Positions 51,001-60,000 are shown, counted from the first letter of the whole stretch. The stretch is DNA of 63,009 bases, filler included, from Candidatus Omnitrophota bacterium (GCA_023140385.1; 5 parts of 5 records of this genome joined end to end with filler, not necessarily neighbours in it), one strand, 5' to 3'. Numbers are program-made.

Positions 51001-54000
51001 TTAACGAGGGGATTAAGAATGTCCGCGAGAAAGGCAGCGGGGTTTACAGGGAAGGCCCTCATATGCTGCCGGCTGTTTCTTTAATGATTGCCGAGGGGGT
51101 GCTTAAATCGGTCAAGGATTTGAAGAGACCTTTTGTAACTATTGTAAATTCATATACAACCCAAATACCCGGCCACGCCCACCTTAATCAGCTGGGAGAG
51201 GTTTTGAAAAAGGAGCTTGAAAAGCAGGGGGTTAATGTCTGGTACGCTAATATTGGGGCGGCAATATGTGACGGTATCGCCATGGGGCATTTTGGGATGA
51301 AGTATTCTCTGGCTTCAAGAGAGCTGATTGCCGACCAGATAGAAAGCATTATTGGCGCTCATCCGTGCGACGCCTGGATTGGCCTGGGAAACTGCGATAA
51401 GATAGTTCCCGCGATGTATAACGCTATGGCCAGGATAAATATACCCGCTATTTATGTAAGCGGCGGGCCGATGCTGGCCGGTTGCGGCAATACGGACCTG
51501 ATTTCTATTTTTGAAGGGGTAGGTAGTTACAGCGTCGGTAAAATGAAGAAAAAAGAGTTAGAGAAGTTAACGGAGACGGCTTGTCCCGGTTATGGAAGCT
51601 GCGCGGGGATGTTTACGGCAAACTCTATGAATTGCCTCGGAGAGGTGTTAGGTTTTGCTCTGCCCGGGAACGGGTCGGTGCCCGCCACCAGGAAGGTAAA
51701 AGGTAAGACAAGGCAGTTTCAGATAAATCCCCAGAGGATCAAACTTGTGAGAGAGGCAGCCCGGCGAGTAGTCTATCTTATGAAAAAGAAGATAAGGCCT
51801 CTTGATATTTTAAAGAGACATTCGATTGACAACGCCTTTATTCTGGACATGGCTATGGGCGGCTCAACCAATACGGTTTTGCATATTCTGGCTCTTGCTC
51901 ATGAGGCGGGGATAAGCTATGATCTTAAACGTTTAAATGAACTGGCGAAGACGACAGCTAATGTAGCTAAGATTGCTCCTTCGCGCCCCGAGATACATTT
52001 AGAACACGTCCACAAGGCCGGCGGCGTGGGGGCCATATTGAGAGCGGTTTATGAAGGCGGCAAGACACACCTGAACCTTCAGGCAAAGACCGTCTACGGC
52101 AAGCTGGGTGATTATGTTTTGAAATCTCCTAAGCCTGACGGCAGGGTTATAAAGTCTGTTAAAGATGCCTTTTCGCCTGAAGGCGGGCTGGCGGTTCTTT
52201 TTGGCAATATTGCCAGAAAAGGTTCAATAGTGAAGACCAGCGGTGTTGATAAGGATATGCTGAAATTTAAGGGTAAAGCAAGAATATATGAGTCCCAGGA
52301 GGAAGCGCTTGATGGGATACTAAAAGGCAGAGTAAAAAGCGGTGAGGTGGTTGTTATCCGCTATGAAGGCCCCAAGGGCGGCCCGGGCATGCAGGAGATG
52401 CTTTCACCGACTGCCGCTATAAAGGGGGCGGACATTAAAGCCGCCCTGATTACCGACGGCCGTTTTTCAGGAGGTACCAGGGGTTTGTGCATCGGCCACG
52501 TATCACCCGAGGCGGCGGCGGGAGGGGAGATAGGGCTGTTAAGAAACGGCGATATAATAGAAATTGACGTCTGCAAAAAACGTATGAATGTAAAACTAAC
52601 GAATGAAGAGTTAAAGAAAAGAAGAAGAAAACAAAAACCATTTAAGTCAAAGGTAAAAGGCGGCTGGCTGGCAAGATATTCATCGCTGGTGACCAGCGCT
52701 GATACGGGAGCNNNNNNNNNNNNNNNNNNNNNNNNNNNNNNNNNNNNNNNNNNNNTTAATTAATTAANNNNNNNNNNNNNNNNNNNNNNNNNNNNNNNNN
52801 NNNNNNNNNNNCAACCTTGCCAAGGTTGATGTCGCGGGTCCGAATCCCGTCTCCCGCTCCATTTTAAATAATAAGGAGCTTTTAAATTGAAAGTAGAAAT
52901 TAAAGACGAAAATCCTTGTAAGAAAATTCTTCGGATAGAAGTTCCCAATGATGTGGTGGAGAGGGAGTTTGACGCGGTTTATAAGGAAATTGGGAAGGTG
53001 GCTGAGATTCCCGGTTTTAGGAGGGGCAAGGTTCCTCGGAATCTGTTGGAGCAGTACCACTCTAAGGCGGCTAAGGACGAGGTTTTAAAAAAACTAATTC
53101 CTACAACATATTCTGAGGCGGTAAAAAAACATGACTTGTATCCGGTTTCTTACCCTGAGATAAGCCAGGTTAAGTTTGTTGATAATCAGCCGCTGTATTT
53201 TGAAGCTGTTATTGATGTAAAGCCGGACGTAAAGCTAAAAAAATATAAGGGTTTGAATATTGTCAAGAAGAAGTTTGAGATTAAGGATGAAGAGGTAAAA
53301 AAATCACTTGACCTTCTGCGGGACAGATTTGCCGAATATAAGACCATAGATTCAAGGCCTGTAAAAAAAGGTGATTATGTGGTAGCCGATTATGAGTTTG
53401 AGGCGGACGGCAAAACCGAAAAACAGGAAAAAGCCTGGTTTTTAATTAATGAAACCGAGGGCGGCCCGAAGGAGATTATTGAAAAATTAATCGGCGCGAA
53501 GTCCGGCGATAAGATAGAAGGCACCTTGAGCCTTCCCAAAGAGTATCCCAAGGCTGAGTTTGCCGGTAAGAAGGCTGTGTTCAAAGTCAGCGTTAAGGAA
53601 ATAAAGGAAAAAAGCCTGCCCGAACTGGATGAGGAGTTTATTAAGGGGTTGGGGAATTACGAATCGCTTGATAAGTTGAAAGAGGCTATCAGGGATGATA
53701 TAAAGGTAAGAAAAGAAAACGAGATTGAAATGGATGTTGACAGGCAGATAGCCGAAGAGCTGTTAAAGCATAACCCCATAGACGTTCCGCTTTCTTTAAT
53801 TAAGAAAGAGGCTGAGCAAATATTTGAAAATGTAAAGGCGCGGCTTAAGCATCAGGGACTTAAAGAAGAGGCCATAGCATCCAAAGAGGGTGATTTAAAA
53901 AAGAGCGCCGAAGCTGACGCCGAAAAGCAAGTTAAAATTTATTTTCTCCTGGATAAAATCGCGGAGGTGGAAAATATAAATTGCGGCGATGATGATCTGG

Positions 54001-57000: not shown

Positions 57001-60000
57001 AGGACCTGGTTGAGATACCAAAGGATGTTTTGCGAAAGCTTGACATAAAAACGGTTGACGATATCGATCAGGTTTTACGAATCGCGCTGGTTAGCAAAAG
57101 AAGGAAAGGGGCGGCTAAAAAGTCAAAGAAGTCGTCGTGGCAAAAGAGCTATCTGCAGCAGCAGATTATGTCGGCCTGATTTACCGATCGCCGCTTTTTA
57201 ATTACAATAGTTTGTTAAAATAAAGGGTTAAAAATGTTAAAGAAAAGATATTTGTTAACGCCGGGGCCCACTCCGGTACCGCCGGAAAGCCTGTTGGCTA
57301 TGGCTAAACCGATAATTCATCATAGGACTAAAGAATTTAGGGCTATATTGGCGGAGGCGACAGAAGGATTAAAGTATGTTTATCAAACCAAGAGTGATGT
57401 ATTAATATTCGCGTCCAGCGGTACCGGAGCTATGGAGTCCGCCGTATGCAACCTTCTTTCTAAAGGAGATAAGGTTATTGCCGTTTCCGGAGGTAAGTTT
57501 GGTGAGAGATGGGGAGAGATTTGTGAAGTCTACGGAGTAAACGCGCGTATAATTGACGTTGAATGGGGTAAGGCGGTAGACCCGGCAGTCATTGAAAATG
57601 AGCTTGAGAAGGACTCTGAAATAAAAGCGGTATTTACCACCCTTTGTGAGACCTCGACCGGCGTAAGAACTGACATCAAGGCATTAGCTGAAATTACAAA
57701 AGGCCATCAGGCTGTATTGGTGGTAGACGCTATAAGCGCTGTGGGGGCGGAGGGGCTAAAGACAGATGAGTGGGGAGTTGATGTAGTTGTGGCCGGCTCT
57801 CAGAAAGGCTTGATGATTCCTCCGGGGCTGGCGTTTGTATCTTTAAGCGAAAAGGCTTATAAGTTGACAGGGGCTTCTGATTTGCCCAAGTATTATTTTG
57901 ATATAAAAAAGGCCAAAAAATCTATCGAAAAAGGTGATACTCCGTATACACCCGCGGTCAATCTTGTGGTAGGCTTAGTTGAAGCATTAAGGCTTATTAA
58001 AGATGAAGGCATTGAGAATGTAATAAGCAGGCATCGGCTCTTAGCTGAGGCGACAAGGGAAGCGGTTAAGGCTTTAGGCTTAGAGCTTTTGGCCCCTGAA
58101 AGCCCGTCTTGTGTTGTTACCGCGGTTAAATTACCCGAGGCGATTGATGGTGTAGAGCTGGTAAAAAAACTGCGAAGTAAATATGACGTTTGGGCGGCCG
58201 GAGGACAGGCGGATCTTAAGGGAAAAATTATCAGAATAGCTCATCTTGGATATATGAACTGTTTTGATACTATTGTCGGCATATCAGCTCTTGAGATGAC
58301 ATTAAGGGAAATGGGTTATAAGTTTGAACTTGGCGCCGGTGTTAAGAAGGCGGAAGAGATACTTGCCGGTTAATAAAATAAAATGACGGAGATTTAAAAT
58401 GATAAAGATATTAGTGAGCGACCCTCTCGCGAAACAAGGTATTGAGATACTTAAACTGGTAAAAGATTTCCAAGTGGATGAAAGGGCTAAGGTACCTCCC
58501 GAGGAGCTTAAAAAGCTGATAAAAAAATATGATGCCATTATTATAAGGTCCGGCACCAAGCTAACGAAGGATACAATTAAGCATGCCGACAACTTAAGAG
58601 TTATCGGCCGGGCCGGGGTTGGCGTTGATAACGTTGATGTGACGGAAGCTAGTTTAAAAGGTATTGTTGTTATGAACGCGCCGGGCGGAAACACAGTATC
58701 TACGGCGGAACTTAGCTTTAGCCTGCTTTTGGCTCTTAGCAGAAACATTCCTCAGGCAAACGCGTCAATAAGGCAAAATCTGTGGGAGAGAAAAAAGTTT
58801 ATGGGCAGTCAGGTATTCGGGAAGACGCTTGGTATTATTGGAATGGGCCGGATAGGTACTGAGGTGGCTAAAAGGGCGGTTGTTTTTGGAATGAAGGTGC
58901 TCGCTTTTGACCCGTTTTTATCCGCCGAAAAGGCTAAAGAGTTAGAGGTTGAGATTGTCAGCAAAAATAAACTTTTTTCCGCGGCTGATTATATTACGGT
59001 TCATACACCTTTAACCGATGATACCAGACATATGATCGGCAGGAAAGAGTTTGAAAAAATGAAAAANNNNNNNNNNNNNNNNNNNNNNNNNNNNNNNNNN
59101 NNNNNNNNNNTTAATTAATTAANNNNNNNNNNNNNNNNNNNNNNNNNNNNNNNNNNNNNNNNNNNNGGGTTGATGTTTATACTCACAGCGAGATGCTTCC
59201 GGCTCACTATTATCCCGCTTTCAAAAAATATGAACATTTTGTCGGCAACTATGGAAATGCCTGGTGGCAGCAAAATAAAGAGTTCGCGTCATTTAACGGC
59301 CCGATTTTGATGACAACCAATTGCATCACTCCCGTTCAGGATTCTTATAAAGATAGGATCTTTACAACAGGAATGACGGGCTATCCGGGTGTTAAGCATA
59401 TTCCTGATGGGAAAGACGGACAGCAGAAGGATTTTTCTGAAGTTGTTGCCTTAGCAAAAACATGTCAACCGCCGCGTGAAATTGAAAAGGGTGAAATTGT
59501 AGGAGGTTTCGCGCATAATCAAGTACTTGCCTTAGCTGACAAAATTATTGAAGCAATAAAATCAGGAGCTATTAAGCGATTTATTGTAATGGCAGGATGT
59601 GACGGAAGGCATCCTGCGAGAAATTATTTTACTGAAGTCGCGAAAAATTTACCAAAAGATACAATTATTTTAACAGCCGGCTGCGCGAAATATCGATATA
59701 ATAAATTGGATCTCGGTAATATCGGAGGTATTCCCAGGGTACTTGATGCCGGCCAGTGTAATGATTGTTACTCTTTGGTGGTTATCGCGCTTAAATTAAA
59801 GGAAGTATTTGAATTAGATGATATTAATGAACTGCCTATTTCCTTTGATATTGCCTGGTATGAGCAAAAGGCTGTGGCTGTCCTCTTGGCGCTTCTCTTC
59901 TTAGGAGTGAAAGGTATTCGGTTGGGGCCGACATTGCCGGCATTTTTATCTGAGAATGTCACAAAAGTCCTTGTTGAGAAATTTGATATCAAACCCATTG

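What a model noticed while it worked through the whole genome (the two positions that open the first line are those of the whole stretch)
52887..57179. Order-wide loss of Der (EngA), RimM, RNase III and ClpX, with clean scars in conserved operons
Four near-universal housekeeping genes are missing here and in all seven other genomes of order JAGLLT01: the 50S-assembly GTPase Der, the 30S-assembly factor RimM, RNase III and the unfoldase ClpX. The operons that normally hold two of them are intact but skip them: tig-clpP-lon on C31:76-4368 and rpsP-trmD-rplS on C33:62366-63657. With the RNA-free RNase P this marks a lineage with a re-wired RNA-processing and ribosome-assembly toolkit.
Evidence so far: No KH_dom-like, RimM, Ribonuclease_3, zf-C4_ClpX, TIGR03594, TIGR02273, TIGR02191, TIGR00382 rows. 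Order: TIGR03594 (E<=1e-60) 0 of 8 and PF14714 0 of 8; TIGR02273 0 of 8; TIGR02191 0 of 8; TIGR00382 (E<=1e-60) 0 of 8; models ring in 8-10 bacterial controls. The same method finds Era 6, IspG 6, DnaX 6, SerRS 5 of 8. Elsewhere in the phylum ~450-aa ORFs with two Era-like halves are common; RNase III is in 19 of 31 phylum genomes but 3 of 14 of the class. tblastn with E. coli RimM: best E 1.5. Gene order g00928 tig, g00929 clpP, g00930 lon; g01005 rpsP, g01006 trmD, g01007 rplS. ClpC and Lon remain.
(Added by a program. Inside this text positions count along the whole contig: they may not be those of the stretch shown here. "Call 12" and the like, gene names such as g00115 and contig names such as C1 are that model's own, and its searches are not shown. 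The text may have been shortened before it was handed on; [...] marks where a part breaks off. The agent that wrote the report below was given it as the finding of a first reader that could run no searches.)

Follow-up and report, generated by a model that had tools for sequence, protein, structure and literature searches.

The report
Housekeeping genes missing across Omnitrophota
Four normally near-universal bacterial housekeeping genes really are missing from this small-genome lineage, but the same gaps are scattered through its whole phylum (one reaches into neighbouring phyla), so this is gradual genome shrinkage and not a special re-wiring of this one order.

Summary
Window 52887-57179 encodes trigger factor, ClpP and Lon with no ClpX between them. 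Der, RimM, RNase III and ClpX are found in 0 of 8 genomes of the order, while RpoB, as a control, is found in 118 of 121 phylum genomes.

None of the four absences is specific to the order. In a 121-genome sample of the phylum (Omnitrophota):
- RimM is in 0 of 121, and in 0 of 4 Verrucomicrobiota/Kiritimatiellota-type genomes of 3.2-4.7 Mb.
- Der is in 38 of 121.
- ClpX is in 48 of 121.
- RNase III is in 67 of 121.

On an RpoB tree these states need at least 11, 10 and 8 changes. All four genes are missing in 14 of 121 genomes, in at least three separate places on the tree.

The scarcity of Der (TIGR03594) in Omnitrophota is already in print as a quality-control note (Seymour 2023).

The clpP|lon junction is not where clpX was lost: in 23 of 23 ClpX-bearing Omnitrophota, clpX lies away from clpP. 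Better positional scars lie on other contigs: pgsA|plsY for der, tRNA-Gln|glmU for clpX and kdsD|kdsC for rnc.

The genome retains ClpC, Lon, FtsH, ObgE, YihA, HflX, RNase E/G, RNase Y, uL1, tmRNA and a protein-only RNase P.

Verdict: real, ordinary reductive loss. Moderate interest.

The parts
52812..52871 (+). 3' part of a tRNA gene (ends ...CTCCA) at the start of contig C31, upstream of tig
   Evidence: Read directly. The contig starts inside the gene, so I did not type it.
52887..54152 (+). tig, trigger factor (421 aa)
   Evidence: TIGR00115 350.7 bits, cut-off 180.2
54155..54769 (+). clpP, Clp protease proteolytic subunit (204 aa)
   Evidence: TIGR00493 320.8 bits, cut-off 308.6. 77-84% identical copies in 6 other genomes of the order.
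54753..57179 (+). lon, endopeptidase La (808 aa from the first TTG). The frame overlaps the end of clpP by 17 nt. In other phyla clpX lies at this junction; it is absent here.
   Evidence: TIGR00763 955 bits, cut-off 608. Other phyla show tig-clpP-clpX(-lon).
57234..58373 (+). class V aminotransferase-like gene downstream of lon (context only)
   Evidence: Best hit NF045640 354 bits, below its cut-off of 650
58399..59066 (+). N-terminal part of phosphoglycerate dehydrogenase, cut by the end of contig C31 (context only)
   Evidence: TIGR01327 matches profile positions 1-221 of 525. The contig ends at 59066.
28958..29638 (-). rplA (uL1), retained although Der is absent. Sits in the nusG-rplK-rplA-rplJ-rplL-rpoB cluster on contig C28.
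   Evidence: TIGR01169 321.5 bits, cut-off 216.3
24127..27816 (-). rpoB, full length. Used as the control gene and the tree marker.
   Evidence: TIGR02013 1793.9 bits at G000:C28:7202-10867; ORF listed

Best explanation
These are real gene absences, produced by stepwise reductive evolution in Omnitrophota. They are of very different ages and are not an order-level event.

- RimM was already missing before Omnitrophota diversified. It is also missing from large-genome Verrucomicrobiota/Kiritimatiellota-type relatives.
- Der, ClpX and RNase III were present in the ancestor of the phylum and were lost many times in different lineages. This order inherited or reached the state in which all three are gone.

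How the cell copes is inferred from what is retained, not shown:
- Regulated proteolysis runs on ClpC-ClpP, Lon and FtsH. tmRNA still adds a tag ending in LAA, which those proteases would have to clear.
- Large-subunit assembly relies on ObgE, YihA/YsxC and HflX, with uL1 kept. Small-subunit assembly does without RimM, as in the PVC relatives examined here.
- rRNA and mRNA cleavage fall to RNase E/G and RNase Y.
- tRNA 5' ends are cut by the protein-only RNase P.

Shown: presence and absence, gene order, the distribution across genomes, and trees compatible with vertical descent of Der and ClpX. Inferred: that the retained enzymes cover the lost functions, and that small, slow-growing and possibly host-dependent cells tolerate the loss.
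For: Absence and control:
- Order counts are 0 of 8 for each of the four genes.
- The RpoB control is 118 of 121.
- Der-less genomes include near-closed assemblies. G096 (4 contigs), G034 and G042 (10 contigs each) also lack the Der-specific KH_dom-like domain, which is in 0 of 5 genomes tested.

Phylum counts: Der 38 of 121, ClpX 48 of 121, RNase III 67 of 121, RimM 0 of 121. Within the class (56 genomes including the order), at the looser E-value thresholds of those calls: Der 27, ClpX 18, RNase III 13.

Trees:
- On the RpoB tree of 80 genomes the minimum changes are Der 11, ClpX 10 and RNase III 8. The order is a starred clade of its own and does not sit inside the other clade that lacks all four.
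- In the Der tree, 25 of 26 Omnitrophota Der sequences group apart from 4 PVC outgroups (support 84), with family clades as in the RpoB tree.
- In the ClpX tree, 23 of 23 Omnitrophota ClpX form one group (support 93).
- Both trees fit vertical descent followed by loss.

PVC relatives: RimM is in 0 of 4 PVC-type genomes and 1 of 1 Nitrospirota control; Der is in 5 of 5 of the same genomes.

Positional scars in G000:
- pgsA-like|plsY overlap by 4 nt, followed by gpsA, where relatives have pgsA-der-plsY.
- spoVG-tRNA-Gln-60 bp-glmU-prs, where 12 of 12 ClpX-bearing class/f24 loci have clpX. The same empty site is seen in 6 of 8 order genomes, from both families.
- kdsD|kdsC, where family f23 has rnc between them.

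Retained genes:
- ClpC-type Hsp100 with 2 Clp_N, a UVR motif, AAA_2 and an LGF loop.
- FtsH and Lon.
- Obg; YihA and HflX.
- RNase E/G 496.5 bits and RNase Y 751.2 bits.
- uL1.
- tmRNA with tag AETQVANVLAA.
- Protein-only RNase P.

Print: TIGR03594 was dropped from the completeness marker set for Omnitrophota as 'infrequently present' and 'phylogenetically constrained' (PMC10066038, section 17, read in full).
Against: - All genomes are metagenome bins. Some scattered single absences that raise the change counts may be assembly gaps: G112 beside G019 for Der, G079 beside G057 for ClpX, and Era in G000.
- The deep branches of the RpoB FastTree are unresolved (14 open forks). The order could therefore still be sister to another lineage that lacks all four, which would lower the number of independent losses.
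- The trees are unrooted apart from the outgroups I chose.
- The Der grouping has support 84 (not starred), and one Omnitrophota Der (G025) falls outside it on a long branch.
- The tRNA-Gln|glmU site is also empty in 2 Planctomycetota-titled loci and in 4 other Omnitrophota loci. For clpX, 'never inserted there' is therefore not excluded.
- Compensation by the retained enzymes is untested.
- RimM is small and diverges fast, so a very remote homologue could escape the models.
Confidence: 0.8

Rival explanations
1. An event specific to the order: the ancestor of JAGLLT01 lost all four genes, and this marks a lineage with a specially re-wired RNA-processing and ribosome-assembly toolkit.
For: - 0 of 8 for all four genes.
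- The order is a starred clade on a long stem (0.27) in the RpoB tree, separate from the other clade that lacks all four.
- The empty tRNA-Gln|glmU site is shared by both families of the order, which fits one loss of clpX in the order's ancestor.
- The protein-only RNase P is present.
Against: - RimM is in 0 of 121 phylum genomes and 0 of 4 PVC relatives, so that absence predates the order by far.
- Der, ClpX and RNase III are each missing from many other families.
- The state lacking all four is also seen in f14 (7 genomes), f15, f16, f19 and f21.
- I found no order-specific replacement gene. All eight hits to the Der model are known GTPases.
Confidence: 0.12
2. Hidden orthologues or non-orthologous replacements: the functions are still encoded by proteins too divergent for the models, or by unrelated proteins that took over. 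In that case nothing was functionally lost.
For: - RimM is short and is absent even from 3.2-4.7 Mb PVC-type genomes, which invites a replacement.
- PVC relatives keep a 76-aa KhpA-type KH protein between rpsP and trmD.
- G000 has an unknown 266-aa ORF just after aroB, where f8 relatives have rnc.
- About 520-aa ClpX-like proteins exist elsewhere in the phylum.
Against: - Profiles built from the phylum's own Der, ClpX and RNase III find nothing new in G000.
- The 266-aa ORF shows no likeness to RNase III (hhalign probability 0.3%).
- The ClpX-like form was not found in the order: the best ClpX-model hit in the 8 genomes is 32.4 bits.
- The order has no khpA between rpsP and trmD; the gap is 7-10 bp.
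- At the der, clpX and rnc sites the flanking genes abut or leave only about 60 bp.
Confidence: 0.06
3. Artefact: the genes exist but fall into assembly gaps of incomplete bins, or are lost during binning.
For: - The bins are 83-96% complete.
- Era is missing from G000 and G002 though present in 6 of 8.
- ClpP gave no match in G003 and TrmD none in G002.
Against: - If each gene were present and were missed with probability (1 - completeness), missing it in all 8 bins would have a chance of roughly 1e-9. This is my arithmetic from the completeness column.
- Whole families with near-closed genomes show the same absences (G096 in 4 contigs, G108 in 6, G102 in 8).
- The flanking genes are contiguous on single contigs at the expected sites.
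- RpoB is found in 118 of 121.
Confidence: 0.02

Closest known systems
Reduced sets of ribosome-biogenesis factors in the Candidate Phyla Radiation (Patescibacteria), as described in Mol Biol Evol 2025, PMC12641178 (passages read; one supplement search)
   Same: - Small genomes in which der is kept in only some lineages, in a class-specific pattern.
- rimM is nearly absent.
- ObgE is kept where Der is gone (here Obg 365 bits).
   Different: - This is a non-CPR phylum in the PVC group. [quoted passage not shown] It notes few factors in Omnitrophota, but from only 1 genome.
- Here uL1 is kept without Der, whereas the paper ties loss of der to loss of rplA in CPR.
- CPR keeps RNase III according to that paper; this order lacks it.
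Omnitrophota quality-control note in Seymour et al. 2023, Nat Microbiol, PMC10066038 (Methods section 17 read in full; other passages)
   Same: [quoted passage not shown]
   Different: - It treats this as a problem of completeness estimation.
- In the text I read there is no discussion of ribosome assembly, ClpX, RNase III or RimM, and no gene-order evidence.
- I did not see its Extended Data Fig. 1 or Supplementary Table 10. They may list further markers.
Loss of Era in Dependentiae, Chlamydia and most CPR (review PMC10582724, passages read)
   Same: An assembly GTPase regarded as essential is dispensable in phyla with reduced genomes.
   Different: A different GTPase. In this order Era is kept: ORFs of about 305 aa in 6 of 8 genomes.
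Bacteria that run ClpP with ClpC only, or that degrade tmRNA-tagged proteins with Lon, for example Mycoplasma (recalled, not checked in any call)
   Same: ClpP or Lon works without ClpX, and tmRNA is kept.
   Different: - Here ClpP, ClpC, Lon and FtsH are all kept.
- The tag still ends in LAA, the ClpX-type ending (that it is ClpX-type is recalled).

Membership tests
Der/EngA (TIGR03594) | One protein with two tandem Era-type GTPase domains | tested here: not met
   No ORF in the 8 genomes of the order matches both halves of the model. Every match covers either model positions about 1-165 or about 155-375. In G000 all 8 matches are MnmE, HydF, FeoB, YihA, HflX, IF-2, LepA or Obg, each over its own cut-off.
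Der/EngA (TIGR03594) | C-terminal KH-like domain (PF14714) | tested here: not met
   0 of 5 genomes over cut-off (G005 of the order, plus G034, G042, G087 and G096); best hit 14.2 bits. The controls ring in 10 bacteria. I did not run PF14714 on G000 itself.
ClpX (TIGR00382) | AAA+ unfoldase of about 420 aa that scores over the curated cut-off of 370.75 bits | tested here: not met
   Best hit in the order is 32.4 bits, in FtsH-sized ORFs of 626-653 aa; in G000 that ORF is FtsH (805 bits). ClpX of phylum relatives scores 573-635 bits.
ClpX (TIGR00382) | N-terminal C4 zinc finger (PF06689) | not tested
   I did not run PF06689. The whole-protein model and my phylum profile found nothing.
RNase III (TIGR02191; PF00636/PF14622 plus dsrm) | RNase III catalytic domain followed by a dsRNA-binding domain | tested here: not met
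   0 of 8 at E<=1. My profile of 4 phylum RNase III sequences gives no hit at E<=10 in G000. A relative's copy (L032) shows Ribonucleas_3_3, Ribonuclease_3 and dsrm.
RimM (TIGR02273; PF01782 plus PRC barrel) | RimM N-terminal domain plus a PRC barrel, usually encoded between rpsP and trmD | tested here: not met
   0 of 8 over cut-off, best E 0.023, and 0 of 121 in the phylum. There are 7-10 bp between rpsP and trmD. In other phyla the 166-182-aa ORFs in that gap carry both domains, 5 of 5.
ClpC-type Hsp100 (the retained partner of ClpP) | Two Clp_N repeats, two AAA+ modules, a short middle domain with a UVR motif, and a ClpP-docking loop | tested here: inconclusive
   Clp_N x2, AAA, AAA_lid_9, UVR, AAA_2 and ClpB_D2-small are all present. 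A GSLGF stretch lies at 684-688. The protein is below the ClpB cut-off (1024 against 1232) and the ClpA cut-off (822 against 993). No ClpC-specific model appeared in the output, and the meaning of the LGF loop is recalled.
Protein-only RNase P, HARP (PF08745 PIN_5) | PIN_5 domain protein of about 190 aa, with no RNase P RNA in the genome | tested here: met
   193.4 bits (cut-off 27) at G000:C33:1970-2524. RF00010 gives no match at E<=1. Only type A RNase P RNA was searched, and the bin is 92.69% complete.

The most novel reading that the evidence does not exclude
Omnitrophota would be a second large bacterial radiation, independent of the Candidate Phyla Radiation, in which Der-free assembly of the 50S subunit evolved and was then reached again and again (at least several losses of Der). 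ClpX and RNase III were shed in the same piecemeal way, and uL1 was kept.

This would imply a pre-adaptation at the level of the phylum that makes these 'essential' factors dispensable. It could be an altered ribosome, an unrecognised assembly factor, or simply very slow growth in ultra-small cells.

It would also undercut the published argument that a CPR-like set of biogenesis factors reflects early divergence and not lifestyle.
Probability: 0.3. Interest if true: 0.65.

Novelty: new member of a known kind. Interest (0 to 1): 0.38.

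Why it matters
**Value of the result**
- It corrects the scale of the finding: these absences are properties of the phylum and of the PVC group, not of one order.
- It gives the first gene-by-gene counts that I could find for ClpX, RNase III and RimM in Omnitrophota. My searches found no paper that treats them.

**For the field**
[quoted passage not shown] A non-CPR phylum with Der in about a third of its genomes, and with many separate losses, tests the idea that the repertoire seen in CPR is unique and ancient.

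**In practice**
- Completeness estimates and marker-gene phylogenies for this phylum should leave out these four genes.
- The positional scars (pgsA|plsY, tRNA-Gln|glmU, kdsD|kdsC) give simple tests for loss in new genomes.

**Limits**
- This remains ordinary reductive evolution, with no new mechanism shown.

Tried and rejected
1. A hidden Der among the GTPases. The 476-aa ORF on C10 (123 bits to the Der model) is MnmE (379.8 bits). The 569-578-aa GTPases in G004 and G006 are a second FeoB, the split form in G002 is FeoB in two genes, and the G001:C29 ORF is HydF.
2. The unknown 266-aa ORF after aroB in G000, as a divergent RNase III at the position rnc holds in family f8. It has no Pfam or NCBIfam hit, and hhalign probability to RNase III is 0.3%. 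Rejected.
3. clpP|lon as the deletion site of clpX. Rejected, because clpX is unlinked from clpP in 23 of 23 ClpX-bearing Omnitrophota loci. Also, 0 of the 22 ClpP loci titled Omnitroph* have clpX after clpP, and only 1 of those 22 has lon directly after clpP.
4. Der outgroups from a single-protein scan of genome contigs. It returned only 2 near-identical loci, so I took the outgroups from five genomes reached through earlier loci.
I ran it again with default filters.
7. Literature searches that gave nothing on the point:
   - Omnitrophota + HARP.
   - Omnitrophota + ClpX.
   - Omnitrophica + RNase P + Aquifex.
   - Omnitrophota + RNase III, which returned only the MBE paper.
   - RimM + PVC phyla, where I looked at the listing only and opened nothing.
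   - The four models on the closed Omnitrophota chromosome behind locus L376.
   - The der and rnc scars in the other seven genomes of the order.
   - The flanks of clpX in the 7 loci L349-L355.
   - RNase P RNA type B, Mini-III and YbeY.

Full report
**What is at the coordinates**

The window is a chain of five contigs of one 1.495-Mb, 57-contig bin (92.69% complete), joined by N spacers. The finding lies on contig C31 (window 52812-59066). From left to right it holds:
- the 3' end of a tRNA gene;
- tig (52887-54152), clpP (54155-54769) and lon (54753-57179), all over their curated NCBIfam cut-offs;
- an aminotransferase-like gene and a phosphoglycerate dehydrogenase gene that is cut by the contig end.

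The clpP and lon frames overlap by 17 nt. On contig C33, rpsP (62366-62608), trmD (62616-63314) and rplS (63307-63657) are likewise over their cut-offs, with 7 bp between rpsP and trmD.

**Are the four genes really absent?**

In the window's own genome:
- The ClpX model finds only FtsH, at 31.5 bits.
- The Der model finds eight GTPases, best 123.4 bits against a cut-off of 306.7. All eight are named over their own cut-offs: MnmE, HydF, FeoB, YihA/YsxC, HflX, IF-2, LepA and Obg.
- The RimM and RNase III models find nothing at E<=10.
- Profiles I built from the phylum's own Der (6 sequences), ClpX (4) and RNase III (4) find nothing further in the six-frame ORFs.

Across the eight genomes of the order (0.9-1.5 Mb, 83-96% complete), each of the four is over cut-off in 0 of 8. 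The odd GTPase hits there are a second FeoB, a split FeoB and HydF.

As a positive control for the method, RpoB is over cut-off in 118 of 121 genomes of the phylum sample, and in 104 of 104 genomes that are at least 90% complete.

One caution: Era is missing from G000 and G002 but present in 6 of 8, so a single bin proves little. Eight bins, near-closed relatives and contiguous flanks do.

**Gene order in the order**

- tig-clpP-lon, with clpP and lon abutting, is seen in 7 of 8 genomes; G003 gave no ClpP match.
- rpsP-trmD about 10 bp apart is seen in 7 of 8 genomes; G002 gave no TrmD match. rplS follows in 6 of those 7, and the G001 locus ends at a contig end.

**Which phylum, and how specific are the absences?**

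The nearest ClpP and TrmD loci in named records are mostly titled Candidatus Omnitrophota. A relative carries a 44,145-aa open frame; giant genes are a known trait of that phylum (abstract of bioRxiv 10.1101/2023.11.21.568195, listed).

Counts in an evenly drawn sample of 121 phylum genomes, the same sample in every call:

| Gene | Over cut-off | Looser threshold |
|---|---|---|
| Der | 38 of 121 | 40 at E<=1e-60 |
| ClpX | 48 of 121 | 52 at E<=1e-60 (two are contig-end fragments; two have only a ClpX-like ORF of about 520 aa) |
| RimM | - | 0 of 121 at E<=1e-5 |
| RNase III | 67 of 121 | 75 at E<=1e-10 |

In the order's own class (56 genomes including the order), at the looser thresholds, the counts are Der 27, ClpX 18 and RNase III 13.

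Every combination of the three variable genes occurs. For example:
- f3 and f4 have Der only.
- f11 has ClpX only.
- f9, f27 and much of f22 have ClpX and RNase III but no Der.
- f12 has all three.

All four genes are missing from 14 of 121 genomes. This is my tally from the genome lists: the 3 order genomes in the sample, 7 of family f14, and one each of f15, f16, f19 and f21. Several Der-less genomes are nearly closed (G096 in 4 contigs, G108 in 6, G102 in 8). The Der-specific KH-like domain is also absent from 5 of 5 Der-less genomes tested.

**RimM is an old absence**

Among 80 TrmD loci from named genomes, 53 have rpsP upstream on the same strand. In 51 of these 53 the gap is 377-1423 bp. 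The two exceptions are an Omnitrophota locus (27 bp) and a Firestonebacteria locus (14 bp).

What the gap holds differs by group:
- The gap ORFs of 166-182 aa from Nitrospirota, Elusimicrobia, Acidobacteriota, a Firmicute and a gammaproteobacterium carry the RimM and PRC-barrel domains, 5 of 5.
- The loci titled Kiritimatiellales, Verrucomicrobiota and Pontiella have only a 76-aa KhpA-type KH protein in the gap, 3 of 3 scanned; a fourth has an ORF of the same size.

The RimM model finds nothing in those four whole genomes of 3.2-4.7 Mb, but finds RimM in the Nitrospirota control. Der is present in all five. RimM was therefore gone before Omnitrophota diversified, and its absence is not a sign of genome reduction in this order.

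Four other Omnitrophota loci have tgt-trmD-rplS, with rpsP elsewhere.

**Loss or gain, and how often?**

I built an RpoB tree (FastTree, 1237 columns) of 80 of the 118 genomes with a match. It holds 55 of the 56 class genomes (G110 was left out because its gene is split over two contigs) and 25 of the 62 others.
- The three order genomes form a starred clade on a long stem, in the unresolved base of the class.
- They do not fall inside the other clade that lacks all four genes (f14, f15, f19, f21, together with f13 and f18).
- The fewest changes needed are 11 for Der, 10 for ClpX and 8 for RNase III.
- These counts are upper-biased by possible assembly gaps. The deep forks are weak (14 open forks, two long-branch warnings).

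In a Der tree (IQ-TREE, quick search), 25 of 26 Omnitrophota sequences group apart from four PVC outgroups (SH-aLRT 84), with family clades matching the RpoB tree. One long-branch sequence (G025) is unplaced.

In a ClpX tree, all 23 Omnitrophota sequences form one group (SH-aLRT 93), split into class and non-class as in the RpoB tree.

Both trees fit vertical inheritance from the ancestor of the phylum, followed by repeated loss.

**Where the genes were lost from**

*clpX.* The clpP|lon junction is not the clpX scar.
- In other phyla the order is tig-clpP-clpX(-lon). None of the 22 ClpP loci titled Omnitroph* has clpX after clpP.
- In 23 of 23 ClpX-bearing Omnitrophota loci, no tig, clpP or lon lies within the 1.5-2.5 kb fetched on each side.
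- In the 12 class/f24 loci whose flanks I examined (of 19 fetched), clpX is always followed by glmU and prs. In most of them it is preceded by tRNA-Gln(UUG) and spoVG.
- In G000, contig C51 reads spoVG, tRNA-Gln(UUG), 60 bp, glmU, prs, rplY, pth.
- The same empty site is present in 6 of 8 order genomes, from both families. The other two contigs start at glmU.
- This fits one clean deletion in the order's ancestor. However, two Planctomycetota-titled loci and four other Omnitrophota loci also read tRNA-Gln, glmU, prs without clpX, so the direction of change is open.

*der.* Relatives have pgsA-like, der, plsY: upstream in 4 of 4 loci examined and downstream in 3 of 4. G000 has pgsA-like and plsY overlapping by 4 nt, followed by gpsA, on C39:34372-36616.

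*rnc.* Family f23 has kdsD, rnc on the other strand, then kdsC, while family f8 has aroB-rnc. G000 has kdsA, kdsD and kdsC abutting, then lptC, on C33. It also has aroB followed by 314 bp and an unknown 266-aa ORF that is unrelated to RNase III.

**What remains, and how the cell most likely copes**

This part is inference from the gene inventory; none of it is tested.
- Proteolysis:
  - ClpP with a ClpC-type Hsp100 (two Clp_N, a UVR motif, two AAA modules, and an LGF stretch where a ClpP-docking loop is expected; the meaning of that loop is recalled), plus Lon and FtsH.
  - No HslU-like hit.
  - tmRNA is present with the tag AETQVANVLAA.
- Ribosome assembly: Obg, YihA/YsxC and HflX are retained. 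Era is present in 6 of 8 order genomes. uL1 is retained.
- RNA processing:
  - RNase E/G (496.5 bits) and RNase Y (751.2 bits) are over their cut-offs.
  - No RNase J over cut-off.
  - A protein-only RNase P of the PIN_5 type is present at 193 bits.
  - No type A RNase P RNA.

**What is in print**

- Seymour et al. 2023 (PMC10066038, Methods section 17 read in full) removed TIGR03594, PF13603 and PF02978 from the completeness marker set for Omnitrophota. [quoted passage not shown] The scarcity of Der is thus already known as a technical note.
- The 2025 survey of ribosome-biogenesis factors (PMC12641178, passages) makes four relevant statements:
  - rimM is in over 90% of non-CPR bacteria.
  - CPR-like repertoires were not seen in other reduced genomes.
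  - Omnitrophota had few factors but needed more genomes; its supplement lists one Omnitrophota genome.
- A review notes loss of era in Dependentiae, Chlamydia and most CPR (PMC10582724, passages).
- I found no paper on ClpX, RNase III or RimM in Omnitrophota.
- I did not see Seymour's Extended Data Fig. 1 or Supplementary Table 10. They may bear on further markers.

**Verdict**

The absences are real, and the operon observations are correct. They belong to a patchwork of reductive loss across the phylum (and beyond it, for RimM), part of which is already in print. No replacement system was found. This is a new, well-documented member of a known kind of phenomenon. It has some value as a non-CPR counter-example for the supposed universality of Der.

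Noticed in passing
G000 contig C39:34372-36616 (outside the window; locus L453): pgsA-like and plsY overlap by 4 nt and are followed by gpsA. Der-bearing relatives have der between pgsA-like and plsY. This is a cleaner positional scar for der than anything in the window.
   Followed up: partly
G000 contig C51:1-4705 (outside the window; locus L364): The order is spoVG, tRNA-Gln(UUG), 60 bp, glmU, prs, rplY(ctc), pth. In 12 of 12 ClpX-bearing class/f24 relatives examined, clpX sits between tRNA-Gln and glmU. The empty site is shared by 6 of 8 genomes of the order.
   Followed up: yes
Relatives G050, G064, G066, G068, G082, G086, G096, G100, G102, G108, G120, G124 (G112 is cut by a contig end); RpoB matches the model only from about position 297 onward, in ORFs of 1133-1164 aa instead of about 1240. 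This is a shared N-terminal change in families f13, f14, f15, f18, f19 and f21, which also form one clade in the RpoB tree.
   Followed up: no
G096:C1, around 407465-407611 (locus L036): An open frame of 44,145 aa, a giant gene of the kind reported for Omnitrophota.
   Followed up: no
G041, G059, G065, G067, G075, G083, G093, G099; locus L356: ORFs of about 515-536 aa score about 290-312 bits on the ClpX model over positions 45-408 only, with no zinc-finger part. The one included in the ClpX tree sits on a very long branch. This may be a ClpX paralogue or an HslU-like protein. None was found in the order.
   Followed up: partly
G000 contig C43:18670-19031: tmRNA with the tag AETQVANVLAA. It keeps the LAA ending although ClpX is absent.
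   Followed up: no
G000 contig C33:1970-2524 (locus L138): A PIN_5 protein (193 bits) of the protein-only RNase P type is present, and no type A RNase P RNA (RF00010) is found in the bin.
   Followed up: partly
G000 and G002, whole genomes: No Era-like ORF of about 305 aa, although 6 of 8 genomes of the order have one. This is either a gap in the bins or a further loss in progress.
   Followed up: no
G000 contig C14:13955-14752 (locus L455:955-1752, minus strand): A 266-aa ORF with no Pfam or NCBIfam hit lies just downstream of aroB, where f8 relatives have rnc. It is not RNase III-like by profile comparison.
   Followed up: yes
G000 contig C56:2007-4400 (locus L121): A 797-aa protein with a Schlafen group 3 helicase domain fused to an S24 peptidase domain, possibly a defence or stress-response gene.
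   Followed up: no
window 52712-52811, and the other three N blocks (16847-16946, 31159-31258, 59067-59166): The window is a concatenation of contigs C27, C28, C30, C31 and C42, joined by N runs around a ttaattaattaa linker. Apparent gene truncations at these points, such as the half phosphoglycerate dehydrogenase next to half a hydroxylamine reductase at 59066/59167, are contig ends and not biology.
   Followed up: yes
Loci L237, L240, L242, L247 (other Omnitrophota): trmD is preceded by tgt (queuine tRNA-ribosyltransferase) instead of rpsP, so the rpsP-trmD link is itself not conserved in the phylum.
   Followed up: partly
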